The notes under the pieces were generated by a model. The model was not told where the DNA came from. It ran no database searches and saw only the letters and a program-made list of their open reading frames with translations. A DNA stretch of 64,000 nucleotides from Patescibacteria group bacterium (GTDB taxonomy: Bacteria; Patescibacteriota; Minisyncoccia; Ryanbacterales; GWA2-47-10b), in assembly GCA_038064855.1 (NCBI GenBank), contig JBBTSE010000007.1, forward strand, positions 238,097 to 302,096. The letters run 5' to 3'. The position numbers and the translations under genes are program-made. Positions 3,592-51,162 of the stretch are shown in pieces (the stretch's first letter is position 1; each line of letters begins with the position of its first letter).

Positions 3592-3694
3592 AAAAAAAAT
3601 CTCGCCCCGCGAGACGTGTATATAAAATACACGAAAAGTGCCGGGAAGTCAAATGATACTATTGAGCACGACATCTGTTATACTATCAGTGATG

Positions 3695-4237
3695 CACAAG
3701 ACAGATTCACAATTGGTTAGTGAATATATCGTGGGCGATGATGCCGCGCTCGAAGTACTTGTCGCGCGTCATCTTACACTCACCTATCGCTTTGTCTATA
3801 AAATGACCGGCAACGCACAAGACGCCGAAGATATCACCCAAGAGACATTTATCAAAGCATGGCGTGCACTCAAAACTTTTGACCAACATAAAAACTTTAC
3901 TACATGGCTTCTCACTATCGCCAAACGAACGGCGATTGATATGCTTCGCAAAAAGCGTGGGCTTTCGTTTGCAGATTTCCAAGATGATGACGGGGCCAAC
4001 CGTCTTATCGATATGCTCGCTGCCGATTCCCGCTCGCCACTCGCCGAGGCTGAAGGTATCGAGGTTCGCGCGGCCGCAGAAAATCTCTCCGATCCCTATC
4101 GCGAGATTATCTCACTTCACTACGATGACGGCCTTTCCCTCGAAGAGATTAGTATGCGACTTGAAAAGCCCGCCAACACTATCAAAAGCCAGCATCGCCG
4201 AGCGCTCATAGCTCTTCGTAAACTGCTCCATATATAG
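3695..4237 (+). CDS. ECF-type sigma-70 family RNA polymerase sigma factor
   Basis: Region 2 (DAEDITQETFIKAWRAL) and region 4 (LSDPYREIISLHYDDGLSLEEISMRLEKPANTIKSQHRRALIALRKLL). Start moved to the internal Met (MHKTD), giving an ECF-typical ~180 aa. Confidence 0.8.
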   Translation, partial: HKTDSQLVSEYIVGDDAALEVLVARHLTLTYRFVYKMTGNAQDAEDITQETFIKAWRALKTFDQHKNFTTWLLTIAKRTAIDMLRKKRGLSFADFQDDDGANRLIDMLAADSRSPLAEAEGIEVRAAAENLSDPYREIISLHYDDGLSLEEISMRLEKPANTIKSQHRRALIALRKLLHI

Positions 4238-10508: not shown

Positions 10509-10537
10509 AAAAAAAGCCCCTCAAAGGGGCTTTTTTA
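10509..10537. terminator. Rho-independent terminator, bidirectional
   Basis: AAAAAAAGCCCCT-CAA-AGGGGCTTTTTT: 7-bp GC stem with an A-run and a T-run on either side. Confidence 0.8.
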
Positions 10538-11576: not shown

Positions 11577-12497
11577 TTAGCGAAAAGTTACCGTACCGCT
11601 ATCAAACTTGAGATCCAAGATAAGCTCGCCGCGAGAGGTAAACTTATAGTGCGAAGTATCTCTGAGAAGCTTGATAAATTCGCTTTCTTGCGAGCCTTGG
11701 CAAGCTCTTTTTGTAGAAATGAGCGCGTTAAAAGTAATCGCACCATCGGCGCCCACCGCATAGTCGCCCCCCACTTGATTGCAGTCAGTGGTAGCGGCAA
11801 AACGCCCAAACTCAAGAAACTCGAGAGTAAAGGCTTCTTTCTGTTTTGGTTTTACTACGCGCTCATCATTGTACAGCGCCTCAACCCACACCCAAACTTT
11901 CATATTGAGCTTCATCACACTTGGGTCAGCCTCACCTTCAAACTCGGGTACAATCTCGCCAAAACTGTTTGACGCTACATCATACCTAAGGTGCAAGCTT
12001 TCACCCACGGTAGGTTCAGCGGTCATGGGCTCGCCACGCTCGCGATCAGCATAGTTTACGATCACATTGCCATTGCGATATTCAGTTGTTTGCGGAGCAA
12101 TGCGATCACCGATCAACACACCCGAAGTACCGCGATATCCACTCACCTCCTTGATAGCACCTACGAGGTAATAAAAAGTACCTGATCCACCGGTATTGTG
12201 CGTGACCAAAAACGCCGTATCAGCATCACCGTCATTGTCCAAGTCTGCCTCAACCGCATTGCCAAAATATCGCGTAGTGATCATGGTGGCAGATCCGGGA
12301 GCTGCGGATACTTCTGATACGCCGTCTTTGAGCGTGACATACTGACCATCGATGAGATAGGTACTATTTTTATAATCAAAACTAAATGTTTCTTGCTTTG
12401 GCTTTCCGCGGTATATAAAGAGAAAAAGACCAACCACAAGCGCGAGAATAATGAACAATAACGCCGCCAACCATCCGTAAGATTTCTTTTGTTCCAT
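11577..12497 (-). CDS. Hypothetical membrane-anchored extracytoplasmic protein
   Basis: Start at MEQKK, then a TM helix (WLAALLFIILALVVGLFLFIY) and a ~270-aa soluble domain. The longer 12533 start would run through an upstream terminator. Confidence 0.6.
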   Translation of the reverse strand: MEQKKSYGWLAALLFIILALVVGLFLFIYRGKPKQETFSFDYKNSTYLIDGQYVTLKDGVSEVSAAPGSATMITTRYFGNAVEADLDNDGDADTAFLVTHNTGGSGTFYYLVGAIKEVSGYRGTSGVLIGDRIAPQTTEYRNGNVIVNYADRERGEPMTAEPTVGESLHLRYDVASNSFGEIVPEFEGEADPSVMKLNMKVWVWVEALYNDERVVKPKQKEAFTLEFLEFGRFAATTDCNQVGGDYAVGADGAITFNALISTKRACQGSQESEFIKLLRDTSHYKFTSRGELILDLKFDSGTVTFR

Positions 12498-12521
12498 ATG
12501 CGCACCATACCACAAAAAAAA

Positions 12522-12560
12522 GCTGCCCGCCAAGGGCAGCTTTTTTAAAAACTATTAGAG
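12522..12560. terminator. Rho-independent terminator, bidirectional
   Basis: AAAAAAAAGCTGCCC-GCCAA-GGGCAGCTTTTTT. Confidence 0.8.
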
Positions 12561-15423: not shown

Positions 15424-15944
15424 GGGCCTATATTATCACCCCTCATCCAACAATCTATGGAGGATCGTAAAAATTTAGCACCCCAAGACACCGATTCAGC
15501 GTCTCGAACATTTTTTATATTTTTTGCTCCGTGAAAAAGATTGCAACGAATTTGGTAGACAAAATCAAAGACCTGTTCTAAGTTACTTTCATCTTGCAGA
15601 TAAACCAGTGTATTTGCACCTGGTCGCATATCTTGGATTGGAGAAAACTCTTTTAATTTAACTGCGTAGTTTGCCGACAAATTCCACCTAGTTAAAATAC
15701 AATCCTTAAAATCACTCTTATTTTGGTAAAAATAATTTAGTTTATCTCGATCCCGACCACACCGAGAAATCTCGGTTAAATATGCATCGAATATCATCCA
15801 GCACAGCATGAAGTCAAGCCATGGATCTTGCCATATTTTAAGCTTTACATTATTTAACTTGGCATTCCACCAAAACATTCTTTCTTTAAAGTCTTGATTA
15901 ACTTCATTTGTATACGAAAGAACCATAAAACTATTTTGCTTCAA
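15420..15944 (-). CDS. Hypothetical protein with R-x4-H (HEPN-like) motif, 3'-overlapping the Type IIG RM gene
   Basis: 174 aa. YQIRCNLFHGAKN carries an R-x4-H spacing. Its start overlaps the last 14 nt of the RM gene, suggesting co-transcription. The HEPN call is inference. Confidence 0.45.
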   Translation of the reverse strand: MKQNSFMVLSYTNEVNQDFKERMFWWNAKLNNVKLKIWQDPWLDFMLCWMIFDAYLTEISRCGRDRDKLNYFYQNKSDFKDCILTRWNLSANYAVKLKEFSPIQDMRPGANTLVYLQDESNLEQVFDFVYQIRCNLFHGAKNIKNVRDAESVSWGAKFLRSSIDCWMRGDNIGP

Positions 15945-18744
15945 TCGTCTTAATTTCCACAGGAGTGAGAGTGTAGAGTTTATATACCCGCTGATCTATT
16001 TCATTTTCCAGTCTTTCAACTTCGGCTTTGAGTGCATGCCATTTGTCAGTGTTTGCCGAAGTCTTGTTTAGTTCAGCATTACGAGCCGCAACCGTATCAA
16101 CGAGGTATGCAATTTTGCTCTGTTCGCTTTCGCCGACCTTGAGCAACGGAATGTCCATCAACGGTTCTTTATCAATTTGTAACTGCTCGCCCTGTTTTTT
16201 GCCTTTATGCTTGAGCCAGAAGTAGGCAAGATTTGAGTTTAGTATGCCCGTCAAGTATTTCAGGTTGATGTTTTCAAGCTTCAAGATAAGGAACGCTCGC
16301 GTAACATAGCAAGGAAAATCAACATAGGTGAATGCCGGATGCATTGTTTTTCGCAACAAGAAAATCGCTTGTCCTTTGAAAAACTTTTCTTCGCGCGGAC
16401 GATGTAAGCCATAAGGAGCAAACGCCGAAGTTAGGATTTTCTTGAAGCGATCAAGGTGATTTTTGAGATTTGGAAACTCACCAATATGTTCCCTGAAATA
16501 CTTGTCGGCGTAAATGATTTTGTACTGGCTTTCTCTGTCGCTTAAATACCTGTTTATCTGTGAAGTGCCGTAGTAAGGTTTTAGGTACTCACGCTCTTTT
16601 TCGTTGAGGTTCATTCCGGCAATCACCGAGTTCCCCAAGACGAACACCCCATCTCCTTTCTTGATGGTGTCGTCTTTCAATTTCGCCAAATGTGATTCCG
16701 AGACGAAATCTTGCAAGACATCTATCCCGTTTCCAATATCGTCCTTTGATAGTTTGAAGTTGCCCACTTTCTCTATCTTTTCCAAGACCTCGGAAACTGT
16801 GTCGTTTGAAAAACTGATGGATTTCCCGCCAGCGTTTACCGATTTTATAGCCGCTTCGTAAACAACTGAGTTTTCAACCTTTTTTTGCAAACCAGAGGAC
16901 AGAAGTGTGGCAACTTCTTCACTTGTCGTATTCTTGCCCGTGATCTTTGCATATTGAACCTTATATGATTTTCGCGGCTTTCTCTTTTGGAAAACGAAAA
17001 TCATTGTTTGAATGCTCGCGTCTTTGAAAACTCGGAAGTCATTGAAATCAACAAACTTGATGATTTCGCCGCTACTCAAAATCTTCTCGCGGAAAATACT
17101 TGCTCCGGCACTTCCGAGCCAACTTGAAGGTGCGATAAAGCTGAAATATCCGCCATCTTTGAGTTGGTCAATGGCGCGGGCGGCGAAAAGCGTCCAGATG
17201 TCCATTTTGCCCTGGTAGTAGGGACTTTCGTGCAAACCATTGAACGCGGCACGATTGGTGTCTTCCTTAATGTACGGTGGGTTGCCAATAATGACATCGA
17301 AGCCGCCCTGCTCGGCAACTCCCGCAAACTCTTTTTCAATATCAAACGGCTTCTGTTCCAACTCACCTTCAGCGAGAAGCGAGTTTCCGACGCGAAGGTT
17401 ATTTTGAAGCACTGGCAGTTTCGTCCTTTGTTGTAAAACTTTCAGAAGAAGGTTGAGCTGGGCGATTTCTACAGCTTGTCCGTCCAAATCGATACCATAG
17501 ATGTTGTCTTTCAAAATATCAAACTTGGTGAACAGCGAGCGTTTGTCTACACTTCCCAAAATCGTGTCGTAGGCGACGGTCAGGAACGAGCCAGAACCGC
17601 ACGCGGGGTCTAGGACTTTGACTTTGTGCATGTCTTTTGGTTTTGTCTTTTTCAATACTTCGCCGAGCGTTTCGCGGACGATAAACTCCACGATGTATTT
17701 CGGCGTGTAGTAAATACCTTGTGATTTGCGCTTTGATTTTACTTTCTCCTCGCCCTTGCGGACTTGGACGAAAGAAAGATATTGCTCGTAGATGCCGCCG
17801 AGCACGTCGGCGGAGATAGCGGAAAAATCGTAGCGATAGCCATCTTTTGTTTCGTACAGTCCTTTTAAGATTTCGGCGAAAACTTTGTCGTCAGCTTCCC
17901 ATTCTTCGCAGTAGTGGAGAGCAAACAGTTTTGAATTGTAGTGTTCGTCAAACCAACGGAAGCCCCGTATCATTCGCTTCCAGATATTCGTGCGCTTCGT
18001 CTCGTATTCGCGCAACAACGCTTGCAAAATAACTTGCTCAATTTTGCGATCTTCGGCAGTGCGGATGAAAATGAGGCGATCAAGAATACGCTGGACGCCC
18101 TCGTCTATTTCGTCAGTGGAAAGGTTGTTGCGCTTTTTGAACTCGGCAGAAAGCGCCACCCGCCAACTCATCAAATCCTCAAACAGTTTTTCGCCGACTT
18201 GCTTGCGCTTAGTGAGTTTGCCCCATTTTTCGGCTTCCTTATCCAAGAGCCGCTGTTCAAAACTCTCTTTTGAGAGAAGCCAAAGCTGATCAAAGCGGTC
18301 TAGGAACTCGTGGACGCCGATTTCAATGAACAGGTTGCGCGATACATCTTTCGGCGAGATTTCGGCGTTGAAAATCTTGATGGTCTCAAAGTCGGTGAGT
18401 ATTGCCCACGTCGCGCTTTTGTTCCAAGCATAATTTATTGCCTGTTCCGCCCATTTCCACTCGTCCAAATCAACTTTCATCGCTTTTGCTTCAAGGAAAA
18501 ATGTTGGGATACCACTCAAACGGAACGCGAGATCCACTCTGCCACCGGATACGTTCTCCTCAGTAGTAACTTCGCCGTCATTGGTGAGGTTACGCATATC
18601 CCAACCCAAAAACTCGAACAGCGGCTCTATGAACTCATTGCGAGTCTGTGCCTCGTTGTACGATTTGATTTTGCCATCCTGCAAGACGCGCTGATATTTC
18701 TCAACGAGTTTTTGTATTGATTGTTTTGCGTCTTGCTTGTTCAT
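15931..18744 (-). CDS. Type IIG/IIL restriction-modification enzyme (MmeI-like fused endonuclease and N6-adenine methyltransferase)
   Basis: 937 aa. N-terminal PD-(D/E)XK-like module (GGRVDLAF...FLEAKAMK), motif I VLDPACGSGSFL, motif IV IIGNPPY, and a long C-terminal target-recognition region. Size matches MmeI-family enzymes. Confidence 0.8.
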   Translation of the reverse strand: MNKQDAKQSIQKLVEKYQRVLQDGKIKSYNEAQTRNEFIEPLFEFLGWDMRNLTNDGEVTTEENVSGGRVDLAFRLSGIPTFFLEAKAMKVDLDEWKWAEQAINYAWNKSATWAILTDFETIKIFNAEISPKDVSRNLFIEIGVHEFLDRFDQLWLLSKESFEQRLLDKEAEKWGKLTKRKQVGEKLFEDLMSWRVALSAEFKKRNNLSTDEIDEGVQRILDRLIFIRTAEDRKIEQVILQALLREYETKRTNIWKRMIRGFRWFDEHYNSKLFALHYCEEWEADDKVFAEILKGLYETKDGYRYDFSAISADVLGGIYEQYLSFVQVRKGEEKVKSKRKSQGIYYTPKYIVEFIVRETLGEVLKKTKPKDMHKVKVLDPACGSGSFLTVAYDTILGSVDKRSLFTKFDILKDNIYGIDLDGQAVEIAQLNLLLKVLQQRTKLPVLQNNLRVGNSLLAEGELEQKPFDIEKEFAGVAEQGGFDVIIGNPPYIKEDTNRAAFNGLHESPYYQGKMDIWTLFAARAIDQLKDGGYFSFIAPSSWLGSAGASIFREKILSSGEIIKFVDFNDFRVFKDASIQTMIFVFQKRKPRKSYKVQYAKITGKNTTSEEVATLLSSGLQKKVENSVVYEAAIKSVNAGGKSISFSNDTVSEVLEKIEKVGNFKLSKDDIGNGIDVLQDFVSESHLAKLKDDTIKKGDGVFVLGNSVIAGMNLNEKEREYLKPYYGTSQINRYLSDRESQYKIIYADKYFREHIGEFPNLKNHLDRFKKILTSAFAPYGLHRPREEKFFKGQAIFLLRKTMHPAFTYVDFPCYVTRAFLILKLENINLKYLTGILNSNLAYFWLKHKGKKQGEQLQIDKEPLMDIPLLKVGESEQSKIAYLVDTVAARNAELNKTSANTDKWHALKAEVERLENEIDQRVYKLYTLTPVEIKTIEAK

Positions 18745-18774
18745 AACCTATTTTAGTTCAAATTTTGGGAACTT

Positions 18775-19086: not shown

Positions 19087-19207
19087 ACTTTAATTTCCTT
19101 AATAATAGTGACTTTTTTAAAAACAAAAACCCGAACAGACGCATATACATCCCCTCGGGTCTTTGTTCAAACTAAGCTTTGAGCGTGATCGGAGGAAATA
19201 TGTAAGG

Positions 19208-19229
19208 TTGCGTAAAAAAATTTGCGTAA
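19208..19229. promoter_or_regulatory. Direct repeat TTGCGTAA-N6-TTGCGTAA in a 350-bp non-coding region
   Basis: GGTTGCGTAAAAAAATTTGCGTAACCCC, about 120 nt upstream of the 19086 start (minus strand). Confidence 0.3.
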
Positions 19230-19442
19230 CCCCCGATAATTTTGTGCTGCGTCCGTATTCAGTTTTTGCTTCTGTAGTCTATTATAGCAGATTTATACTC
19301 CTACTGCAAGAAACCCGAGCTATCTTTTTTACTTCTTTTTATTCTCCCCGTGCCTAAAGCAATGATCGCTACCCTCACGCGCGGGGACGATACATTTTTT
19401 GCCTTTGGTGTTTATGGCCTTGCAGATCTTCTTTGGCATATA

Positions 19443-19841
19443 TCACCTATTCAACCATGTTATGGTCAATTGCAACACTGTCGCAAACGAAACCCATAAA
19501 ACATACGGGATATTGGCGAGGGCGATCCACTTGGCATACGGCCAAATAGCCACCAGTGCCCAGACGAGCGTGCCAAGCACCAATATAATATCTATCGAAG
19601 CCAACAGATTATTCTTGAGCCCGAACTGGATCGGCGTAAAGATAAAATTAAACGCAAGATTGAGCGCAAACGGTAGCGCTACCATCCACGAAATCTTGCC
19701 GGTAAACGCTTTGTAAAACACCGCACCAAAAGTAACCGCAATGATCGCATAGAGCGCGCTCCATACGGGGCCAAACAGCCAGCTTGGCGGCGCCCACGAT
19801 GGCCTGATCAATGTCTGATACCAGCTATATGCTTCATTCAT
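19443..19841 (-). CDS. tspO: TspO/MBR family tryptophan-rich sensory protein
   Basis: 132 aa with Trp-rich TM segments (WYQTLIRPSWAPPSWLFGPVWSALY...) characteristic of TspO. Confidence 0.85.
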   Translation of the reverse strand: MNEAYSWYQTLIRPSWAPPSWLFGPVWSALYAIIAVTFGAVFYKAFTGKISWMVALPFALNLAFNFIFTPIQFGLKNNLLASIDIILVLGTLVWALVAIWPYAKWIALANIPYVLWVSFATVLQLTITWLNR

Positions 19842-19846
19842 AACCT

Positions 19847-19873
19847 AAAAATCGCACTTTTGGTGCGATTTTT
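19847..19873 (-). promoter_or_regulatory. Conserved hairpin AAAAATCGCAC-N5-GTGCGATTTTT, 5 nt upstream of the tspO ATG
   Basis: Arms are identical to the 22407-22432 element. On the minus strand both are followed by TTTTTA(G/A)GTTATG. Confidence 0.55.
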
Positions 19874-19951
19874 CAAGGGTAAAAACCTACCTTGACTTTT
19901 GGCGAATATTTGATAGGATCTGTGTATTACGACGAAAGGGGCTCCAAACGG

Positions 19952-20491
19952 TTAACTGCCTAAGGAGCCCTTTTCTTTTCTCTCGATTTTGCTCCGTACT
20001 CCGGAGGAGTTTAGAGCATCAAAATATACTGCTCCGATTTTCTTGTACAAAGAAGAAGCCCTACTACGATCAGGAAACAAGATTTTTGCAAACTTATTTT
20101 CTTCAATCAAAAAATCGACGAGGGGCTTGTAGTCACCGTCACCTGATATCAGAACGATCTTGCCGAAATCTTCATGCTTGTACATCTTTTTCATTATGTT
20201 AAAAATGATGTCTGAGTCTACATTGCCCTTCTTTTTTCCTATCATCGCCGGGTTGTGCTCGCGAAATATCAATATGAATCCGGCTTTTTGGATTTCCTCA
20301 TAGAGATCTTGATTTGCCTCTTGCACATAACCTAGAAAATAATACGCTTCGCCGACGCTATATTTTTGCTCAAGATATACACGAAAGCGCGCCAAATCAA
20401 CCCTCCATGGATCAATCTCCCGCTTTGCGGTACCCATGTAAAGATTTTGGCCGTCTATATACGCAAGGTTGTTTCTTGCTTGCTTCGCCAT
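19952..20491 (-). CDS. NYN domain (LabA/PIN-like) protein
   Basis: AYIDGQNLY ... DSDIIFNIM ... LISGDGDY motifs of NYN/DUF88 nucleases. Confidence 0.75.
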   Translation of the reverse strand: MAKQARNNLAYIDGQNLYMGTAKREIDPWRVDLARFRVYLEQKYSVGEAYYFLGYVQEANQDLYEEIQKAGFILIFREHNPAMIGKKKGNVDSDIIFNIMKKMYKHEDFGKIVLISGDGDYKPLVDFLIEENKFAKILFPDRSRASSLYKKIGAVYFDALNSSGVRSKIERKEKGSLGS

Positions 20492-20503
20492 CCTCTGTAA
20501 AAA

Positions 20504-20884
20504 TTATTTCTTCTCTTCTTTGCTGTAGTCGTACCAGACTACTTCAATATTGTGCCCGTCAGCATCGTGTACAAACGCGGCGTAGTAACCGGGCCAGTAT
20601 TCGGTGCGGTATCCGGGGGCGCCGTTGTCTGCCGCACCCGCGGCCAGTGCTACTTTGTAAAACTCATCTACCTGCTCTTTATTTTTTGCCTCAAAGGCAA
20701 CGTGTAGTGGGACCACGCCCTTGGGGTTCTTCCCTATCCAAAAGCTGGTATGCCCGCCCTCTATGAAGCCTGCGGCCTCGCCGTATTCCATATTGTTCTC
20801 GTAGCCGAGTGGTGCGAGTGCTTTGATATAAAACTCTTTTGCTTTTTTGTAGTCGCTCACGGGGAGCCCTGTATGTGCAATCAT
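20504..20884 (-). CDS. VOC family protein (glyoxalase/bleomycin-resistance fold)
   Basis: 126 aa with a MIAHTGLPVSDYKKAKEFY...HVAF...FVHDADGHNIEVV pattern. Confidence 0.75.
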   Translation of the reverse strand: MIAHTGLPVSDYKKAKEFYIKALAPLGYENNMEYGEAAGFIEGGHTSFWIGKNPKGVVPLHVAFEAKNKEQVDEFYKVALAAGAADNGAPGYRTEYWPGYYAAFVHDADGHNIEVVWYDYSKEEKK

Positions 20885-20920
20885 GCAAAAATTATAACAT
20901 ATTTAAACTTATAAAAAGAA

Positions 20921-20960
20921 AAAAGCCAGCCTGATAATGGACTGGCTTTGACATGCGTTA
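20921..20960 (-). terminator. Intrinsic terminator, minus orientation
   Basis: AGCCAG-N12-CTGGCT hairpin followed on the minus strand by TTTTTTCTTTTT. Confidence 0.6.
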
Positions 20961-21407
20961 CGCCGGATGTGCTTTCTGTAGGCGTTCTGCGTGTGCGGCA
21001 ACAAACGAGAACATACGATGTAGGAATTCACGACTTGAACGCCGAGCGCGAATATCGCTAAGTGCCGCGCCAAGCGCTGAGTGTAGTGCTTCAGCGCTTT
21101 CGTAGGAAAGCTTGTAATGCATCACGCGTTTGCCACCTCTTCGCTTGAGATCTTCGCGCGCCAGTGGCACAAGTCTACCGTCCTTGATGTCGGATGATTC
21201 GACTTTACGCTCAAACCTAAACACGAGCGCAGCCAGATCGTCGTCCGAGACATAGACCGAAACAGCACGGCCAGCTCCAAGGCGATTGAAATAGCGCATC
21301 GGCTTCTGGGAAAAGGAGAGGTCTTTACGCTGACTGAAGAGAGCCTTCGCGAGCTGCCATAAACCCCCAATATTCACTTTGAGTACCTCCAAAAAGTAGC
21401 CTAGCAC
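20958..21407 (-). CDS. Hypothetical protein
   Basis: 149-aa ORF with no recognised motif. Retained as the only long ORF here. Confidence 0.4.
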   Translation of the reverse strand: MLGYFLEVLKVNIGGLWQLAKALFSQRKDLSFSQKPMRYFNRLGAGRAVSVYVSDDDLAALVFRFERKVESSDIKDGRLVPLAREDLKRRGGKRVMHYKLSYESAEALHSALGAALSDIRARRSSREFLHRMFSFVAAHAERLQKAHPA

Positions 21408-21448
21408 GACTTGCCAAACAAAGAAAAGATTAGATAGTTTTACTCCCT

Positions 21449-22222
21449 TTATTTACACACAAACACGATCTCGTGGTTTTTCTGTGCGCCGAGGGCTACC
21501 TGTGTAGTTTTTTTGAGAAGCGTCTGGCCATTGAGTGTCACATCTTTGATATTGTTTGGAATTTGAAATGACAGATCGAGCTTGAGTGCGCGCAGGTAGA
21601 TAGCGCCGGGCTGAGTGCCGTCAATAGTGACAGTGACGGCAGGCAGTGTGGCGACTGCCGATCCCCCGCTCGCGATTGGTTCGCCAGGCAACTTGAGGCC
21701 GGGCAGTGGTATCGGCAGTGAGCCGGGTATCATGGGGCCGCAGCCGTTGTTTTTGATGGTCATACTCACGGATGTGGCCTGTAATACTACGGCGGCACCT
21801 ACGGCGACAATAGTTATCAGGCCAAATGGACCCTTGGCGGCGCCAAATATTTTACTCCATACAGATTTTTGATTGGGAACTTTTTGCCCTATCTCGTTCG
21901 CATAGAGTTCTGCCTCGACGCGCGAAATCTCGCTGCGCAAATTTTTCCAAAACTGTATGAGAAGCAACAATGCCCTTTTGCGCCCTTTCCTGTCTTCGGT
22001 ATCATCAGGCAAGTGTTCAGCGGCGAGTTCGGAGTATTCGCCATTATCAAGCTTGTCGAGATGAGAAAATGCCTCATCACACGCCTTGAGCTTTTCATCG
22101 ATACCCGCATGCATGCCGCCCACAAGATCGCGCACCGCGCTAAACTTTTCGCGTGATGTAGTGTCGCCTACAAACAGTGCGTGTGCGGCCTCAAGGCGCT
22201 TTTTGGCATCTTTGTAATCCAT
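21449..22222 (-). CDS. Hypothetical membrane protein, co-operonic with the Cys-rich mini-ORF
   Basis: Start at MDYKDAKKR, 5 nt after the mini-ORF stop. Soluble N-terminal domain, central TM (GPFGLITIVAVGAAVVLQA) and a Pro/Gly-rich C-terminal domain. Confidence 0.55.
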   Translation of the reverse strand: MDYKDAKKRLEAAHALFVGDTTSREKFSAVRDLVGGMHAGIDEKLKACDEAFSHLDKLDNGEYSELAAEHLPDDTEDRKGRKRALLLLIQFWKNLRSEISRVEAELYANEIGQKVPNQKSVWSKIFGAAKGPFGLITIVAVGAAVVLQATSVSMTIKNNGCGPMIPGSLPIPLPGLKLPGEPIASGGSAVATLPAVTVTIDGTQPGAIYLRALKLDLSFQIPNNIKDVTLNGQTLLKKTTQVALGAQKNHEIVFVCK

Positions 22223-22230
22223 ATAAAAAA

Positions 22231-22401
22231 TTATTTGTCTTCTGGTGCGGGTGCGTCGTGGTCTTGGCAACCGTTGTGCTTGCCATCAGTGCAATCGCAT
22301 GCCTCGAGCGACATGTTGTGCTTTGGGCACATCTCGGCGCCGCAAACTCCTTCTTTGTCTGATACCCCCTTGCAGGTGCCCGTACATATATAGTGTGTCA
22401 T
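22231..22401 (-). CDS. Unannotated 56-aa Cys-rich small protein; putative metal-binding
   Basis: Hand translation on the minus strand gives MTHYICTGTCKGVSDKEGVCGAEMCPKHNMSLEACDCTDGKHNGCQDHDAPAPEDK*: 7 Cys and 4 His in 56 aa. Absent from the ORF track, which appears limited to ORFs of at least 60 aa. Preceded by the conserved hairpin. Confidence 0.5.
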   Translation of the reverse strand: MTHYICTGTCKGVSDKEGVCGAEMCPKHNMSLEACDCTDGKHNGCQDHDAPAPEDK

Positions 22402-22406
22402 AACTT

Positions 22407-22432
22407 AAAAATCGCACAGAAGTGCGATTTTT
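22407..22432 (-). promoter_or_regulatory. Conserved hairpin AAAAATCGCAC-N4-GTGCGATTTTT, 5 nt upstream of the Cys-rich ORF ATG
   Basis: Second copy of the element at 19847-19873. Loops differ (TTCT vs CAAAA) while the arms and downstream context are identical. Confidence 0.55.
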
Positions 22433-22450
22433 ACAAACAGAGTTTCGAGT

Positions 22451-23101
22451 TTATTTCTTTTTAGCCTTTTTGGGGGCTGCTGCTTTTTTGGCTGGAGACT
22501 TCTTTGCCTCAACGATCTTGGGAGTCTCAGCTACGGGCTTTGCAGTTTCTTTTTGAGATACTGCTGGTGTCAATATACTGATGAGTTTATCGAGCTTGGC
22601 ATTGAGTGAAGCAAAATCTGCTTTGTAATCTGCTGGCTTTGAGCCACTTCGGTCAGTAAATTTGCGATCATCGAAGCTGCGCTTTGGGCGCTCATCACGA
22701 GCTGGGCCGTCGAGCGAGAGATCTCCGCCAGCACCATCGAAACAATCTTTGCAGAAAGTTGGGCGTCCACCGGTAGGCAAAAATGGTACTTCGCATTTTT
22801 TGCCACATTTACTGCAGACCGCTGCATACATACGACGCTCTTCAAAGCGTGAGTTACCACGATCGTTGCGGTCAAAAGTGCGTCCGCCACCATCGCGCTC
22901 GGACCCGCCGTCGCGTTCTTTATCAAAACAGTCACTGCAGTACACAGGACGCTCGCCGGTAGGGCGAAACGGCACTTGGCAGCGCTTGCCACACTTGCCA
23001 CACACAGCGTCATGCATCTGGGGACGGTCATTGCGTCCGCCAAAACTTCGTTTGCCGAACTTGTTGCCGCCGCCTCGGTTGTCTTTGTTGAAATAGGCCA
23101 T
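22451..23101 (-). CDS. Tandem CxxC-x17-CxxC zinc-ribbon protein with Lys/Ala-rich tail
   Basis: Two repeats of C-x2-C-G-K-x-C-x-V-P-F-x-P-T-G-x-R-P-x-x-C-x-x-C-F. The tail (KKSPAKKAAAPKKAKKK) is histone-H1-like. Confidence 0.7.
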   Translation of the reverse strand: MAYFNKDNRGGGNKFGKRSFGGRNDRPQMHDAVCGKCGKRCQVPFRPTGERPVYCSDCFDKERDGGSERDGGGRTFDRNDRGNSRFEERRMYAAVCSKCGKKCEVPFLPTGGRPTFCKDCFDGAGGDLSLDGPARDERPKRSFDDRKFTDRSGSKPADYKADFASLNAKLDKLISILTPAVSQKETAKPVAETPKIVEAKKSPAKKAAAPKKAKKK

Positions 23102-23150
23102 ATATTAGGTAGAACGCAACTATATACTATTTGGCAAAAAATAGCAAGGG

Positions 23151-24830
23151 CTAGCCACGCTCCAAGAAAAGTCGCGCCAAACGGAGCTCCTCAAAGTCAT
23201 AACTCTCGCCCAGCATGGAACGGGCGGGGGCGAGCTGTAATGTGTCGCTATAACTGCGTATTTGTTCAAATGCTTCGCAGATTTTCTCAAATCGCGCGCC
23301 TGACGGCTTGAAATGCGCGCAGTCAGCCTCGATATCAATCAACCCTTTGCGCAAGAGTTTTTCCAAATGCTCGATGACCGTGCCTACGGTGACACCTCGC
23401 GTCTTGGCGATCTCGCGCGGAGTGAGCTTTTGCATCAAAAGTTCGCGTGTGGCCTCGTGAGTTGGTATTTTCTTTTTTGATATCTTCGCTGTGCCTTTTT
23501 CAATAGTACCGCCGCAGGCGCGGATAAAATTGTGATGCATGTCTTGTAGGTCGGGCGTGCTCATGGCGGTAAATACTTCGCGCGCTTGGTCTGATGAATC
23601 ATGAAATGCCGCGTCGTGCTCCAAAATACGGGGGTGTACCTGCAAAGATTTTTCGTTGTATCCACGCAGATACAAACCTGCGAGCGAGCGTACGCGAGAG
23701 AGCGCTACATATCCCTGCCCATATTCAAAGGTAGCTGAGAGATCCATGAGTGCTGCATCGAGTGACATACCTTGGCTTTTGTGAATGGTGATAGCCCACG
23801 CAAGCCGCAAAGGGACTTGGATGATTTTGGCGAGTGTCTTGCCGCCTTCTTCTACCGCCCACTCCATGGGAAATACTTTGATCGTCTCACCGGTGCCGAT
23901 GCGAACCTCGGGTAAACCGTCGTCTTCGGCAAAGCCGGTGACAACGCCAAGCGTGCCATTGAAAAAACCGTTTTCAAAATCATTTTTGGTAAACATCACG
24001 CGTGCGCCTTCTTTTAAGAAGAGCGTTTCGGGCGAGAGACACCCGCGCTTGAGTGAGTCAGCGAGCGCCTTGGAACCTTTTGTATGCATATCAAAAATGC
24101 GCGCGTTGCCGGGGATCTTTGAAAGTTCGCCTTTGTTGATATGATCGACATCGGCATTGTGCGAAAAGAGTTGCGGCATGACATCAACATTGTCAGGCAC
24201 AATGTTGCGCGCTTTTAAATGTTTGTGAAGATTTTTGGTCACCTCACCTTTGCGAATCGAGAGCAACATATCGAGAAATACCGGATCTTCTTGGCGATGC
24301 TGCTCGGATAGATAACAAGTCAGTAAACCCGCCGCACTCCATGATGGCGCTTCGAATGCGAAGCGTGATGCGCGGCCTCCGCGCGCGATGGGTGGGAGCT
24401 GAAAAAAGTCGCCTACAAAAATCACCTGCATACCACCGAAGGGCGCGGGGTTTCGTCGCAACGCCCGCAAGATCGTATCGATCATGCCGAGAGTGTGTGC
24501 GTCGAGCATTGAGATCTCGTCGATAATCAGCACATGAGTTTTGCGCGCGCGCTCGACGAGTTTTTCTTTTTGTGTCAAAAAATCAAGATCGTAGTCGGTG
24601 AGCGCGTCGCGGATACCAAGACCACTCCATGAATGAATCGTCATGCCACCGATATGGGTCGCGGCAATGCCGGTCGATGCGGTAATAGCCGGTTCAATAC
24701 CGTGCTCGCGCAGATACCCGATGTACTGACCTATAAGATATGACTTGCCAGAGCCCGGCTCGCCGGTGATGCATACATTGGCGCCGGTTTTTAATATAGA
24801 AAGTGCGGTGTCTTGGGTCATAAGATGCAC
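23151..24830 (-). CDS. AAA_30/PIF1-RecD-like DNA helicase with C-terminal HTH domain
   Basis: Walker A GEPGSGKSYL, Walker B VLIIDEISML, SF1 motifs (VFVGDFFQLPPI) and a C-terminal helix-turn-helix-like segment. Confidence 0.75.
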   Translation of the reverse strand: MHLMTQDTALSILKTGANVCITGEPGSGKSYLIGQYIGYLREHGIEPAITASTGIAATHIGGMTIHSWSGLGIRDALTDYDLDFLTQKEKLVERARKTHVLIIDEISMLDAHTLGMIDTILRALRRNPAPFGGMQVIFVGDFFQLPPIARGGRASRFAFEAPSWSAAGLLTCYLSEQHRQEDPVFLDMLLSIRKGEVTKNLHKHLKARNIVPDNVDVMPQLFSHNADVDHINKGELSKIPGNARIFDMHTKGSKALADSLKRGCLSPETLFLKEGARVMFTKNDFENGFFNGTLGVVTGFAEDDGLPEVRIGTGETIKVFPMEWAVEEGGKTLAKIIQVPLRLAWAITIHKSQGMSLDAALMDLSATFEYGQGYVALSRVRSLAGLYLRGYNEKSLQVHPRILEHDAAFHDSSDQAREVFTAMSTPDLQDMHHNFIRACGGTIEKGTAKISKKKIPTHEATRELLMQKLTPREIAKTRGVTVGTVIEHLEKLLRKGLIDIEADCAHFKPSGARFEKICEAFEQIRSYSDTLQLAPARSMLGESYDFEELRLARLFLERG

Positions 24831-29433: not shown

Positions 29434-30672
29434 TTAGCAACTATTACCTGCGACATAACCGGTAGTCCAGCAAAGCTGAAGACTATATCCGCCCGATGGC
29501 CGATCAATATTGAGCATGTCACCTACTATATAGAGCTGCAGCACTACACGCGACTGCATAGTCTTGAAATCAATCTGACTAAGCTCAACGCCTCCCGATG
29601 ATACGATTGCTTTGTCTTTACCGAGCAACCCTGCAACATGCAATGGAATCGCCTTGAGAAGCGCAGCAAGTGTTTTGCGCTCGTCTGTGCGCACGCTATG
29701 ACTTGGCGTCTCGCTATCAATGCCGGCCTCTGCGAGCAGTGGTAAAACAAGAGCGGGCTGGATAAATGGTGAAAGAACATTTTTTATTTTTTTATTGCTA
29801 TCCGCCACCAAGATTGCCTGCAATCTTGCGCGTAATGTGCCCGCATCAAGTGTTGGGAACAGATCGAGCATGATAGTGACTTCTTCTTCGTCACGCAGTA
29901 GCTCGCCTACATCTCTACTCATATTAAGCACTGCGGGACCGCTGATACCGACATGGGTAAAGAGCATCTTACCCTTGTATGCTTTTTGTTTTTTGCCATT
30001 TTGAAATGTGGTCAGTTTGATATCAGTGAGCGCTACGCCCGCGCATTTTTTCACCCATGCGTCTTTGAGCGCAATGGGTACGAGCGCCATATCATTGGCG
30101 ATGACTTTATGACCGAGCTTCGAGAGCCAACCAAATCCATCACCAGTAGAGCCTGTCTCGGGACGCGAGGTGCCGCCTGAAGCAACGATGCATGACTGCG
30201 TGCGTATTTCTGATTTGTCAGCGAGCGTGATGGCGATCTCGCCAGTAGATTTTTCTGTGGCGATACTCGTGACCTTTGCTTTAGGCTGGATCTGTACGCC
30301 ACCTTCTTTCATATACTTTACCAACACATCGTAGACTGACTGTGCTTTATTTGATACGGGGAATACGCGACCCTCGGCCTCTTCTTTTGTGGGCATGCCC
30401 CGTGCATGAAAAAAATCAAGCGTCTCTGCCACGCCAAATTGAGTAAAGGCAGAAAATAAAAACTTGTCACTCTTTTTGTATCGCGCGAGCATGGTGCGCA
30501 CCTCGGGCTTGTTGTTGGTCACATTGCACCGCCCACCTCCGGTGATGAGAAGTTTTTTGCCGAGTGTTGGATTTTTCTCAAACAACAACACACGCCGCCC
30601 GCGCGCACCCGCGCGACCTGCCGCAATCATTCCAGCGGGACCACCGCCAATAATCACTACATCCCATACCAT
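29434..30672 (-). CDS. HI0933/YhiN family FAD-dependent oxidoreductase
   Basis: VVIIGGGPAGMIAA dinucleotide-binding motif, LLITGGGRCNVTN, and the C-terminal GG...G....A..LV.P.L motif of the family. Confidence 0.85.
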   Translation of the reverse strand: MVWDVVIIGGGPAGMIAAGRAGARGRRVLLFEKNPTLGKKLLITGGGRCNVTNNKPEVRTMLARYKKSDKFLFSAFTQFGVAETLDFFHARGMPTKEEAEGRVFPVSNKAQSVYDVLVKYMKEGGVQIQPKAKVTSIATEKSTGEIAITLADKSEIRTQSCIVASGGTSRPETGSTGDGFGWLSKLGHKVIANDMALVPIALKDAWVKKCAGVALTDIKLTTFQNGKKQKAYKGKMLFTHVGISGPAVLNMSRDVGELLRDEEEVTIMLDLFPTLDAGTLRARLQAILVADSNKKIKNVLSPFIQPALVLPLLAEAGIDSETPSHSVRTDERKTLAALLKAIPLHVAGLLGKDKAIVSSGGVELSQIDFKTMQSRVVLQLYIVGDMLNIDRPSGGYSLQLCWTTGYVAGNSC

Positions 30673-30691
30673 GGAGGCACTGTAGCAAAAA

Positions 30692-30715
30692 AGCTCGCGT
30701 AAAACGAGCTTTTTA
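30692..30715 (-). terminator. Intrinsic terminator
   Basis: AGCTCG-CGTAAAA-CGAGCT followed by TTTTT. The A-run and T-run give a palindromic context. Confidence 0.6.
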
Positions 30716-49833: not shown

Positions 49834-51098
49834 CAGCGCCTGATGACATCGGTACCAATATACGGTTGGAGTACTTCGGGTATGCGGATCGATCCGTCAG
49901 CTTGTTGGTTTTGTTCGAGCAAGCTAATAAGAATGCGCGGTGTAGCTACCGCTGTATTGTTGAGTGAGTGCGCAAAACGAGTAGTACCGTCAGCGTCACG
50001 GTATTTGAGATTGAGACGGCGTGTTTGAAAATCATGGAAGTACGATGCTGAATGTGTCTCGCCAAATCTTTCCTGTGATGGTATCCATGTCTCGATGTCA
50101 TATTTTTTCACTTGTCCCAAACCAGTATCGGCACCGCAATTGAGCACTACCCGATAATGGAGTCCGAGCTTTTGCAAAAGGTCTTCAGAGTTTGCGAGCA
50201 CCTCTTCGTGGAGGCGCACTGATTCCATGTGGTCAGCCTTGCACACAATCACCTGTTCTACTTTACGAAACTCGTGCACACGATAAAGTCCCTTGGTATC
50301 CTTGCCATGACTTCCTGCCTCCCTACGAAAACAAGGTGAGAGCGCTACAAATTTTTTAGGCAACTCATCTTCGGTAAGAATTTCATTTTGTAGCATGCCC
50401 ATGACAGAGACCTCGGCCGTGCCCACCAGATAGGTACCGTCTTGTGTTTGATATACATCTTCTTTGCCTTGCGGAAAATAACCAGTGCCGATAAAATTTT
50501 CTTCGCGCACAAGTGACGGCGCGTTGATCGGCACATATCCTTTGCCGGAGAGTTCGCGCATCGCAAACTGCCAGAGCGCGATTTCGAGTAGTACCGCTTC
50601 ACGCTTGAGAAAGTACCCACGGAAACCCGCTACCTTGATACCGTTGTCAAAATCAGCGAGATCCAAATCACGCAAAATAGTAATATGATCTTTTGGCACA
50701 AAAGAAAACTCTGGCACCTGACCCCATCGCTTGATCTCACGATTATCAGCATCAGAGGCACCATCCGGTACCGATGGATCGGGAATATTGGGCGCCTGAT
50801 ACATCAAAAATTCAAATTCAGCGGTAGCATCAGTAAAAAACTTTTCTTTGTCGCCTAACTCTTTTTTGAGCTCACGCATTGCCTCAATGAGACGCTTTTT
50901 TGCCTCCGCGTCTTGCATGCGACCGATCTCCTCGGATGTCGCATTGAGCTGGGTGCGCAACGCATCTACCTCGACTTGGCGTTCGCGCCTGACTCGATCA
51001 GCTTCAAGGAGCTTTTCGACATCAAACGGAATATGCTTTTTGCGAGCAGCATCTCGCAAAAGACTTGGATTTTCACGGATGAACTTGATATCGAGCAT
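49833..51098 (-). CDS. serS: Seryl-tRNA synthetase
   Basis: N-terminal coiled-coil arm. Class II motifs (RREAGSHGKDTKGLYRVHEF, GETHSASYFHDFQTRRL). Confidence 0.9.
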   Translation of the reverse strand: MLDIKFIRENPSLLRDAARKKHIPFDVEKLLEADRVRRERQVEVDALRTQLNATSEEIGRMQDAEAKKRLIEAMRELKKELGDKEKFFTDATAEFEFLMYQAPNIPDPSVPDGASDADNREIKRWGQVPEFSFVPKDHITILRDLDLADFDNGIKVAGFRGYFLKREAVLLEIALWQFAMRELSGKGYVPINAPSLVREENFIGTGYFPQGKEDVYQTQDGTYLVGTAEVSVMGMLQNEILTEDELPKKFVALSPCFRREAGSHGKDTKGLYRVHEFRKVEQVIVCKADHMESVRLHEEVLANSEDLLQKLGLHYRVVLNCGADTGLGQVKKYDIETWIPSQERFGETHSASYFHDFQTRRLNLKYRDADGTTRFAHSLNNTAVATPRILISLLEQNQQADGSIRIPEVLQPYIGTDVIRR

Positions 51099-51162
51099 TT
51101 CTTTATTATACTCAAAAACCCTCTGCTTGCCAGAGGGTTTTTGGAGGAACCGCTATATAATA

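What the first reader, a model, noticed from the sequence alone, without database searches (positions are those of the whole stretch)
19847..22432. Identical-arm hairpin immediately upstream of two unrelated start codons (tspO and the Cys-rich ORF)
Minus-strand sequences AAAAATCGCAC-CAAAA-GTGCGATTTTTAGGTTATG (tspO) and AAAAATCGCAC-TTCT-GTGCGATTTTTAAGTTATG (Cys-rich ORF) share identical 11-nt arms and an almost identical 8-nt tail ending in the start codon. The loops differ in sequence and length.

The variable loop spacing argues for an RNA structure rather than a dimeric protein operator. The hairpin followed by a U-run resembles an intrinsic terminator placed in the 5' leader. That placement points to an attenuator or riboregulatory element, or a structure masking the ribosome-binding region, shared by two genes that may respond to the same signal (porphyrin, metal or redox stress).
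Basis: seen in the sequence. Interest (0 to 1): 0.55.

Follow-up and report, generated by a model that had tools for sequence, protein, structure and literature searches.

The report
Shared promoter doubling as a terminator
The two identical hairpins are real, but they are most likely two copies of a short, reused promoter that starts transcription exactly at the ATG; in these copies it also folds into a terminator for the gene upstream, so it is not a regulatory RNA leader.

Summary
Two perfect hairpins with identical arms lie 4-5 nt before the ATGs of tspO and a 56-aa Cys-rich ORF (2 found, 0.07 expected).

The interpretation as a 5' leader attenuator is not supported. This groundwater Patescibacteria genome places -10 hexamers at exactly -12..-7 from ATG starts, which is the sequence signature of leaderless mRNAs (P about 4e-6). 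Both elements fit that geometry: TTGAAA or TTGTAA at -35, a 17-nt spacer, TG at -15/-14, GATTTT at -12..-7, then six bases and the ATG.

Ten copies of this module, from this genome and two relatives, align without a gap. They precede seven different genes. Promoter positions are invariant, while the left arm of the hairpin is present in only some copies and shows no compensatory change.

So the right arm is the promoter's extended -10 and the A-run of the left arm overlaps the -35. Where the left arm is present, the palindrome most likely terminates the tandem upstream gene. The same hairpin sequence in 120 unrelated genomes sits mainly at gene 3' ends.

The closest known kind is the promoter-coupled terminator, here in an unusually compact form. 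All functional claims are inferred from sequence.

The parts
19847..19873 (-). Hairpin 1: AAAAATCGCAC / CAAAA / GTGCGATTTTT, an 11-bp perfect stem
   Evidence: -12.0 kcal/mol; 6-bp core -7.3. It lies 78 nt after the NYN stop at 19952 and 5 nt before the tspO ATG.
19871..19876 (-). Predicted -35 hexamer TTGAAA of the tspO promoter; it overlaps the A-run of the left arm
   Evidence: It occupies -35..-30 relative to A19841, with a 17-nt spacer. TTG is invariant in all 10 module copies.
19848..19856 (-). Predicted extended -10 (TG at -15/-14, C, GATTTT at -12..-7); this is the 3' arm of hairpin 1
   Evidence: Other genes in the window show the same TGC + hexamer + 6 nt + ATG layout.
19443..19841 (-). 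tspO (132 aa, TspO/MBR); predicted leaderless, with transcription starting at A19841
   Evidence: Pfam E 1e-28. Homologues are 131-133 aa.
19952..20491 (-). Upstream tandem gene (NYN domain) whose transcript hairpin 1 would terminate
22406..22433 (-). Hairpin 2: TAAAAATCGCAC / TTCT / GTGCGATTTTTA, a 12-bp perfect stem
   Evidence: -14.5 kcal/mol. It starts 17 nt after the stop at 22451 and ends 4 nt before the ATG at 22401.
22431..22436 (-). Predicted -35 hexamer TTGTAA of the Cys-ORF promoter, shifted 1 nt relative to the arm so that the spacer stays 17 nt
22408..22416 (-). Predicted extended -10 (TG, C, GATTTT at -12..-7); this is the 3' arm of hairpin 2
22231..22401 (-). 56-aa Cys-rich ORF, a real conserved small protein; predicted leaderless
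   Evidence: It has 7 homologues and 22 invariant columns, including six Cys. There is no Pfam hit.
22451..23101 (-). Upstream tandem gene (two zf_Tbcl_2 treble-clef zinc fingers) whose transcript hairpin 2 would terminate
30679..30714 (-). Comparison case: hairpin AAAAAGCTCG..CGAGCTTTTT followed directly by TGC-TACAGT-gcctcc-ATG (ATG at 30672)
51105..51143 (-). Comparison case: hairpin CAAAAACCCTCTG..CAGAGGGTTTTTG followed by TATAAT-aaagaa-ATG (serS, ATG at 51098)
12504..12546 (-). Comparison case: hairpin plus T8 followed by TGG-TATGGT-gcgcat-ATG (ATG at 12497), but in a divergent intergenic region

Best explanation
Each element is a sigma-70-type promoter for a leaderless mRNA, and in these two copies it also encodes an intrinsic terminator for the gene just upstream (a promoter-coupled terminator).

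The shared sequence is the promoter. It consists of -35 TTGAAA or TTGTAA, a 17-bp spacer, TG at -15/-14, a -10 hexamer GATTTT, a 6-bp stretch TARGTT, and the A of the ATG as the transcription start. This roughly 50-bp module has been copied in front of several unrelated genes in this lineage.

The right arm of the hairpin (GTGCGATTTTT) is the extended -10 region. The A-run of the left arm overlaps the -35. The rest of the left arm and the loop fill the spacer, which is otherwise free to vary.

Once the right arm is fixed by promoter function, any hairpin built on it must carry the left arm AAAAATCGCAC. That accounts for identical arms with unrelated loops.

In RNA made from the upstream tandem gene, the stem followed by UUUUU should release the transcript about 2-4 nt before the next gene's start. 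The downstream mRNA itself does not contain the hairpin.

What is shown: the sequences, the geometry, the enrichment statistics, and the conservation pattern across copies. What is inferred: the transcription start at the ATG, actual termination at the hairpin, and how the left arm arose.
For: (1) Leaderless geometry is a property of this genome.
- TAnnnT sits at -12..-7 in 9 of 47 ATG genes, against 1.27 at other offsets (P 8e-6).
- TAnnnT-N6-ATG opens a long ORF at 15 of 38 sites, against a mean of 3.45 for other spacings (P 4e-6).
- TGnnAnnnT-N6-ATG does so at 8 of 19 sites, against 0.9 (P 5e-6).
- Examples are TGC-TATAGT-N6-ATG (35931), TGC-TATACT-N6-ATG (45589), TGT-TATAAT-N6-ATG (20884) and TTGACT-N16-TACACT-N6-ATG (15223).

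(2) Ten module copies from the window, L141, L140 and L134 align without any gap.
- TTG at -35..-33, GATT at -12..-9, T at -7 and -6, T at -1 and the ATG are invariant. TG at -15/-14 is kept in 9 of 10 copies and T at -8 in 9 of 10.
- Spacer columns 18-29 vary freely.
- The 1-nt loop difference between the two window copies is offset by a 1-nt shift of the -35, so the spacer stays 17 nt.

(3) The copies precede seven different genes: tspO, the Cys ORF, CYTH, a RhuM-like gene, DUF2177 and two short ORFs.

(4) The hairpin is optional. The GC core pairs form in only 2-4 of 10 copies, there are no changes on both sides of a pair, and the 3' side is invariant while the 5' side varies.

(5) The hairpin behaves like a terminator.
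- Both hairpins follow co-directional genes.
- Their stability matches other A-run/stem/T-run hairpins in the window, including two between convergent genes.
- The same sequence in 120 other genomes lies between convergent genes 33 times and divergent genes 8 times. In 44 tandem cases it sits a median of 36 nt after the upstream stop.
- The L141 CYTH copy lies about 10 nt after a strong GC-rich terminator, and its A-run has decayed.

(6) Hairpin, T-run and -10 placed immediately before an ATG recur at 30672, 51098, 20884 and 12497.

(7) Overlapping terminators and promoters with dual-use DNA were reported for tandem genes in several bacteria (bioRxiv 10.64898/2026.08.19.745784).
Against: - There are no transcript 5' or 3' end data, so the start at the ATG and termination at the hairpin are both inferred.
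- GATTTT matches TATAAT at only 3 of 6 positions. It does keep the two key bases, A-11 and T-7, and has TG at -15/-14.
- The stems are weak for terminators: a 6-bp core of about -7.3 kcal/mol, with the rest A-U pairs.
- Three hairpin-less copies (L141 1245, 3879, 5230) sit at junctions with no other obvious terminator. Hairpin presence therefore does not track need cleanly.
- Two similar hairpins, at 12516-12546 and about 3600-3614, lie between divergent genes where no tandem upstream gene needs terminating.
- The module is conserved beyond what a promoter usually needs (G-16, C-13, TARGTT). That may reflect recent copying or an additional function.
Confidence: 0.6

Rival explanations
1. A palindromic operator. 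A dimeric regulator binds AAAAATCGCAC..GTGCGATTTTT across the -35/-10 spacer and represses both genes together. The hairpin potential is incidental, or it serves both uses.
For: The palindrome sits where repressors commonly bind, over the core promoter. Terminator palindromes that are also transcription-factor sites have been described, for example LexA at yobI/ruvA. A shared module in front of two genes fits co-regulation.
Against: Half-site spacing differs, at 5 versus 4 bp. Six of ten module copies carry only the right half-site. No DNA-binding regulator gene lies in the neighbourhood apart from an HTH_40 tail on the PIF1-like helicase. The A/T runs are typical of bidirectional terminators in this window.
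Confidence: 0.13
2. A by-product without function. The two elements are copies of a duplicated promoter. The left arm arose by a template-switch mutation that made an imperfect palindrome (the A-run in the -35 against the T-run in the -10) perfect, or by gene conversion between copies. It is neutral in the spacer.
For: Spacer positions are otherwise unconstrained. Every module copy already pairs AAA of the -35 with TTT of the -10. The left arm differs from hairpin-less alleles as a block rather than by scattered substitutions. Template switching at imperfect palindromes is an established mutational mechanism (my own knowledge).
Against: The perfect 11-12 bp stems are kept unchanged in separate metagenomes: window, L140, L142 and L141 copy 3. 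The 1-nt loop change is compensated at the -35. The stem has decayed only in the copy that already follows a strong terminator.
Confidence: 0.15
3. The hairpin is transcribed as part of the 5' leader of tspO and the Cys ORF, and acts as an attenuator, riboregulator or mask of the translation start that responds to a common signal.
For: The hairpin with its U-run lies 4-5 nt before both ATGs. In read-through transcripts from the upstream gene, the hairpin would indeed sit directly before an AUG that has no usable Shine-Dalgarno sequence. A weak alternative pairing between GGUUUUU (19884-19890) and the left arm exists in the tspO copy (read from the sequence).
Against: The predicted transcription start is downstream of the hairpin. 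Only 17 nt lie between the upstream stop and hairpin 2. There is no Rfam match. The hairpin is absent upstream of the same genes in relatives. There is no covariation. The same hairpin marks gene 3' ends elsewhere.
Confidence: 0.06
4. A recombination or cassette-boundary site. The module or its hairpin is the target of a recombinase that moves gene cassettes, by loose analogy with integron attC sites.
For: Homology between the window and L141 breaks exactly at module copies. CYTH, and a 2.6-kb segment carrying a 400-aa gene, a RhuM-like gene and a second NYN gene, are present or absent between direct repeats of the module.
Against: Ordinary homologous recombination between 30-45 bp direct repeats explains the same pattern. 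No integrase is found in the region. The element is far shorter than an attC site, and most copies have no hairpin.
Confidence: 0.05

Closest known systems
Promoter-coupled terminators (Fletcher, Forrest, Cooper, Adams, Kapanidis, Grainger; bioRxiv 10.64898/2026.08.19.745784, August 2026)
   Same: A terminator hairpin and a same-strand promoter overlap between tandem genes. The same bases serve both signals. An A-run lies upstream and a T-run downstream of the stem. The arrangement saves intergenic space.
   Different: In the described form, the T-run lies just upstream of the -10, the stem-loop coincides with the -35, and termination falls about 10 bp before the start site.

Here the T-run is part of the -10 hexamer, the stem-loop fills the spacer, and the A-run is part of the -35. 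The predicted gap between termination and start is only about 2-4 nt, and the start site is the start codon.

The described form does occur elsewhere in this window, at 30672, 51098 and 12497. Nothing here has been measured.
Leaderless mRNA promoters, as mapped in Mycobacterium and modelled by GeneMarkS-2 (Lomsadze et al. 2018, cited; Cortes et al. 2013, cited)
   Same: A -10 hexamer lies at a fixed distance of about 6-7 nt before an ATG start, and no Shine-Dalgarno sequence is present.
   Different: My searches of the held library found no paper describing this for Patescibacteria. Here one particular promoter sequence is reused in front of many genes.
Bidirectional intrinsic (Rho-independent) terminators
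   Same: A perfect palindrome with an A-run, a stem containing G-C pairs, a short loop and a T-run. The same sequence acts like this in many phyla.
   Different: The two elements lie in a run of same-strand genes where only one direction is needed. They abut the next start codon, whereas the tandem cases elsewhere sit a median of about 140 nt before the next start.
Transcription attenuators and riboswitch expression platforms
   Same: A terminator-like hairpin lies close to the start of a gene.
   Different: There is no upstream leader, sensor or alternative structure. The hairpin is not conserved with the genes, and the predicted transcription start lies downstream of it.

Membership tests
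Intrinsic (Rho-independent) terminator | Stem-loop with G-C pairs and a loop of 3-8 nt | tested here: met
   The stems are 11-12 bp perfect with 4 G-C pairs and loops of 5 and 4 nt. Stability is -12.0 and -14.5 kcal/mol. These are at the weak end of the range.
Intrinsic (Rho-independent) terminator | A U-rich tract immediately 3' of the stem | tested here: met
   UUUUUARGUU follows the 6-bp GC core.
Intrinsic (Rho-independent) terminator | Position downstream of a co-directional gene | tested here: met
   The hairpins lie 17 nt and 78 nt after the upstream stop codons. The same sequence elsewhere is found 33 times between convergent genes, 8 times between divergent genes and 44 times between tandem genes.
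Intrinsic (Rho-independent) terminator | RNA 3' ends in the U-tract | not testable with these tools
   This needs Term-seq or 3'-RACE.
Promoter-coupled terminator | Terminator and same-strand promoter overlap, within 35 bp, between tandem genes | tested here: met
   The hairpin occupies -32..-5/-6 of the predicted promoter, and the genes are tandem. This is a sequence prediction only.
Promoter-coupled terminator | A -10 hexamer immediately downstream of the T-tract, with termination about 10 bp before the start site | tested here: not met
   In the two focal elements the T-tract lies inside the -10 hexamer, and the predicted gap is about 2-4 nt. The feature is met at 30672, 51098 and 12497.
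Promoter-coupled terminator | Mapped transcription start and termination sites, and interference between polymerases | not testable with these tools
   This needs Cappable-seq, Term-seq and in vitro transcription.
Sigma-70-type promoter of a leaderless mRNA | A -35 TTGnnn and a -10 with A-11 and T-7, 17 bp apart | tested here: met
   TTGAAA or TTGTAA, N17, GATTTT. The spacing is identical in all 10 copies. The -10 matches the consensus at only 3 of 6 positions.
Sigma-70-type promoter of a leaderless mRNA | Extended -10 TG at -15/-14 | tested here: met
   TG is present in 9 of 10 copies. TGn also precedes the hexamer in 7 of 16 window genes with nAnnnT at -12.
Sigma-70-type promoter of a leaderless mRNA | A fixed 6-nt gap from the -10 to the ATG, enriched across the genome | tested here: met
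   P values are 8e-6, 4e-6 and 5e-6.
Sigma-70-type promoter of a leaderless mRNA | Transcript 5' end at the A of the ATG | not testable with these tools
   This needs 5'-end mapping.
Transcription attenuator or riboswitch leader | A promoter and leader upstream of the hairpin, with a sensor or alternative structure | tested here: not met
   Only 17 nt separate the upstream stop from hairpin 2. There is no Rfam match at E<=1 apart from a chance ctRNA hit elsewhere.
Transcription attenuator or riboswitch leader | Structure conserved with the regulated gene, with covariation | tested here: not met
   The hairpin is absent upstream of tspO and Cys-ORF relatives. No pair shows a change on both sides.
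Palindromic operator of a dimeric regulator | Constant spacing between half-sites | tested here: not met
   The central spacers are 5 and 4 bp.
Palindromic operator of a dimeric regulator | A cognate regulator | tested here: inconclusive
   No regulator gene lies among the eight neighbours scanned. The rest of the genome was not available.
ECF-sigma-dependent promoter | A -35 GAAC-like and a -10 CGT-like motif 16-17 nt apart | tested here: inconclusive
   TGAAAA-N15-CGAT can be read in the module, but the spacing is 1-2 nt short of the consensus I recall. An ECF-type sigma gene lies at 3638-4237, and its own upstream region lacks the module.

The most novel reading that the evidence does not exclude
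A portable promoter-plus-start-codon module of about 50 bp, running from the -35 to the ATG, has been copied in front of at least seven unrelated genes in a variable gene island of related groundwater Patescibacteria.

It marks the breakpoints where gene cassettes are gained or lost. In some copies it has become a terminator as well, by acquiring an inverted copy of its own -10 region.

On this reading the island would be a set of self-contained units of terminator, promoter, leaderless start and gene. These units shuffle by recombination between the modules, and may be expressed together.
Probability: 0.25. Interest if true: 0.6.

Novelty: new variant of a known kind. Interest (0 to 1): 0.4.

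Why it matters
If correct, this shows how far a very small genome can compress its signals. One 45-bp stretch would carry the end of one transcript, the full promoter of the next, and the start codon.

It would extend the recently proposed promoter-coupled terminator idea to an uncultivated phylum, and to a tighter layout in which the T-run is the -10 and the start site is the start codon.

It also gives sequence-level evidence that this Patescibacteria lineage relies heavily on leaderless mRNAs. That affects gene-start calling and small-ORF detection in such genomes. For example, the 56-aa ORF was missed in two of three assemblies.

For the finding as first stated, the practical message is that no new riboregulator or shared RNA switch is likely here.

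Tried and rejected
(1) A truncated tspO created by an inserted element. Rejected: 131-133 aa is the normal length in Patescibacteria relatives.

(2) A conserved tspO leader. Rejected: seven relatives at 80-86% identity have different neighbours and no hairpin.

(3) A conserved leader of the Cys ORF. Rejected: L008, L009, L010 and L013 have none.

(4) A known RNA family. Rfam gives nothing at the gathering threshold or at E<=1 in 19300-23200.

(5) A regulon or repeat family within the window. Only the two copies exist, and relaxed searches give chance-level hits.

(6) A genome-wide regulon from the genome collection. It served instead as a test of where this hairpin sits.

(7) TAAGTT/TAGGTT as the -10. 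Rejected: the start site would fall inside conserved coding sequence, and no -35 fits.

(8) An integron attC-like site. Rejected on length, on the lack of an integrase, and on most copies lacking a hairpin.

(9) The simple terminator scan missed both hairpins, because the stem absorbs the T-run.

(10) Pure chance identity. Unlikely given 0.07 expected, the shared tail, and the additional copies in L141.


Full report
**1. Observation**

On the minus strand the window reads cccTTGAAAAATCGCACcaaaaGTGCGATTTTTaggttATG, where the ATG at 19841 starts tspO. It also reads gttTTGTAAAAATCGCACttctGTGCGATTTTTaagttATG, where the ATG at 22401 starts a 56-aa Cys-rich ORF.

A search for perfect hairpins returns 19847-19873 (11 bp, loop 5) and 22406-22433 (12 bp, loop 4). 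TCGCAC-N3-8-GTGCGA occurs twice against 0.07 expected, and no shuffle reached two. The RNA hairpins fold at -12.0 and -14.5 kcal/mol.

Both start codons are reliable.
- TspO matches Pfam at 1e-28, and its relatives are almost all 131-133 aa.
- The Cys-rich ORF has seven homologues with an invariant MTHYICTG start and conserved cysteines.

The organism is a Patescibacteria (CPR) population from Hainich groundwater.

**2.

All genes from about 15.4 to 24.8 kb are on the minus strand.
- Hairpin 2 begins 17 nt after the stop of a zf_Tbcl_2 gene.
- Hairpin 1 lies 78 nt after the stop of an NYN-domain gene.

The window holds a class of perfect palindromes of the form A5-6 / stem / T5-6, at 10510, 12516, 19847, 22406, 25852, 30688, 51113 and 60745. 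Two of them lie between convergent genes and are terminators by position. The focal hairpins are as stable as 30688-30714, at -12.4 kcal/mol.

**3. The hairpin does not travel with either gene**

tspO relatives at 80-86% protein identity (L004, L134-L139) sit in different neighbourhoods and have no hairpin upstream. The Cys-ORF homologues in L008, L009 and L010 have none either.

The closest relative is L013, at 93% identity. It keeps GTGCGATTTTTAAGTTATG exactly but has no complementary left arm.

**4. What the shared sequence is**

Reading the upstream regions of all ORFs showed -10-like hexamers placed exactly six bases before many ATGs, often preceded by TGn:
- TGT-TATAAT-ttttgc-ATG (20884)
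- TGC-TATAGT-atttat-ATG (35931)
- TGC-TATACT-caataa-ATG (45589)
- TGC-TACAGT-gcctcc-ATG (30672)
- TATAAT-aaagaa-ATG (51098)
- TTGACT-N16-TACACT-gtagat-ATG (15223)

The pattern holds up quantitatively.
- TAnnnT sits at -12..-7 in 9 of 47 ATG genes, against a mean of 1.27 at other offsets (P 8e-6). nAnnnT does so in 16 of 47, against 4.1 (P 7e-6).
- Without relying on my start calls, TAnnnT-N6-ATG opens a long ORF near its 5' limit at 15 of 38 sites, against 3.45 for other spacings (P 4e-6).
- TGnnAnnnT-N6-ATG does so at 8 of 19 sites, against 0.9 (P 5e-6).

This is the sequence signature of leaderless transcription, as modelled by GeneMarkS-2 (reference listed).

Both focal elements fit it: TG at -15/-14, GATTTT at -12..-7, six bases, then ATG. 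Each also has a -35 hexamer (TTGAAA or TTGTAA) exactly 17 nt upstream. The 1-nt difference in loop length is offset by a 1-nt shift of the -35 relative to the arm.

**5. Related copies**

A metagenome scan for GTGCGATTTTTARGTTATGA found L140 and L142. These carry the zf_Tbcl_2 to Cys-ORF junction with the hairpin. It also found L141, a syntenic 278-kb contig with several copies. Relaxed matching and BLAST added more copies.

Ten copies precede tspO, the Cys ORF, CYTH, a RhuM-like gene, DUF2177 and two short ORFs. They align without a single gap.
- Invariant: TTG at -35..-33, A at -31, G at -16, T at -15, GATT at -12..-9, T at -7, -6 and -1, and the ATG.
- Kept in 9 of 10 copies: G at -14, C at -13 and T at -8.
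- Freely variable: columns 18-29, which correspond to the left arm and loop.

The GC core of the stem pairs in only 2-4 of the 10 copies. No pair shows changes on both sides. The 3' partner is constant while the 5' partner varies. The conserved unit is therefore a promoter, and the hairpin is an optional addition in its spacer.

Given the fixed right arm, any hairpin built on it must have the same left arm. This explains identical arms with unrelated loops.

**6. What the hairpin does where it is present**

The evidence favours termination of the upstream tandem gene.
- The position fits: it lies after co-directional genes.
- The form fits: a stem followed by U5.
- In 120 unrelated genomes that contain AAAATCGCAC-N3-6-GTGCGATTTT, the hairpin lies between convergent genes 33 times and divergent genes 8 times. 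In 44 tandem cases it sits a median of 36 nt after the upstream stop and about 140 nt before the next start.
- In L141 the copy before CYTH follows a strong GC-rich terminator by about 10 nt, and its A-run has decayed (AAACGTCGCAC).
- The same layout of hairpin, T-run, -10 and ATG occurs at 30672, 51098 and 20884 in tandem contexts.

A preprint reports that terminators and promoters of adjacent tandem units often overlap, share bases, and influence each other (10.64898/2026.08.19.745784). The same authors note that a terminator palindrome can also be a regulator site.

The focal elements are a tighter version of this. The T-run is inside the -10, the stem-loop is in the spacer, the A-run is in the -35, and the predicted start site is the start codon.

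**7. Weak points**

- There are no transcript-end data.
- GATTTT is a poor -10.
- The stems are weak.
- Three hairpin-less copies have no alternative terminator.
- Two similar hairpins, at 12516-12546 and about 3600-3614, lie between divergent genes that are real. These genes are typA, an ECF-type sigma factor and a META-domain protein.
- The module is more conserved than a promoter strictly needs. That may reflect recent copying, gene conversion or an extra function.

**8. Variable island**

BLAST of the window against L141 shows homology blocks that break at the module copies.
- 22418-21447 matches L141 from copy 1 onward.
- 22436-22395 matches the copy in front of CYTH.
- The 45 nt at 19878-19834 match both L141 copy 2 and copy 3.

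So CYTH, and a 2.6-kb segment carrying a 400-aa gene, a RhuM-like gene and a second NYN gene, are present or absent between direct repeats of the module. Homologous recombination between the repeats is enough to explain this.

**9. Verdict**

The 5' leader attenuator reading is not supported.

The best explanation, at confidence 0.6, is a reused leaderless promoter module that in these two copies also forms a terminator for the upstream gene. The promoter part taken alone I put at about 0.8, and the terminator role at about 0.55.

I classify it as a new variant of a known kind, of moderate interest.

Noticed in passing
window, minus-strand starts 15223, 20884, 30672, 35931, 37352, 41857, 45589, 51098, 12497, 61784; plus-strand start 37520: A -10 hexamer, often with TGn, sits exactly 6 nt before the ATG. 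This is a strong positional signal for leaderless mRNAs in a Patescibacteria genome. My searches of the held library found no paper describing this for the phylum.
   Followed up: yes
window 12516-12546 and 3592-3637: Terminator-like hairpins with long T-runs lie directly before leaderless-type starts (ATG at 12497 and typA ATG at 3591). Both are in divergent intergenic regions, where no tandem upstream gene needs terminating. They may stop antisense read-through, or they may contribute to promoter function.
   Followed up: partly
window 3638-4237 (+): A gene for an ECF-type sigma factor (Sigma70_r2 plus r4_2, 199 aa), divergent from typA. Its upstream region does not carry the repeated module.
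   Followed up: partly
window 22231-22401 (-): A 56-aa Cys- and His-rich protein (MTHYICTGTCKGVSD...CDCTDGKH) with only 7 homologues in 5.8 billion clusters and no Pfam family. It was not called as a gene in two of three assemblies of the same population. In L009-L012 its homologues lie near a tyrosine recombinase gene.
   Followed up: partly
window 19834-22436 compared with L141 594-7055: This is a variable gene island. CYTH, a second NYN gene, a RhuM-like fragment and a 400-aa gene are present in L141 but absent here. The 149-aa gene at 20958-21407 is replaced by a HAD hydrolase in L141. The neighbours include an MmeI-like restriction-modification gene (15931-18744) and a PIF1-like helicase.
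   Followed up: partly
L016, L031, L045, L050, L058, L074, L076, L085, L086, L104 (Lachnospiraceae RGIG4182); L023, L037, L039, L075, L107 (Treponema); L027, L030, L070, L083, L054, L099, L110 (Gemmiger/Subdoligranulum): In these unrelated genomes the same AAAATCGCAC..GTGCGATTTT hairpin is embedded in longer multi-copy repeats with conserved flanks, for example agacagccggcaccgcgcagtc...gcaagacttgcgtgcgccaaaa. These look like dispersed repeat families.
   Followed up: no
window 19443-19841 (-): The Patescibacteria TspO is 131-133 aa and matches the Pfam profile only from position 20. It appears to lack the first transmembrane helix of canonical TspO proteins.
   Followed up: no
window 18742-18750 and 20326-20334 (-): TAGGTTATG also occurs at the start of the MmeI-like gene (TAAAAT-aggtt-ATG) and inside the NYN coding sequence. 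TARGTTATG occurs 4 times against 0.67 expected.
   Followed up: no
window 19087-19442: A gap of about 350 nt downstream of tspO has no ORF of 40 aa or more on the gene strand. One assembly calls a 36-aa ORF there (L003).
   Followed up: no
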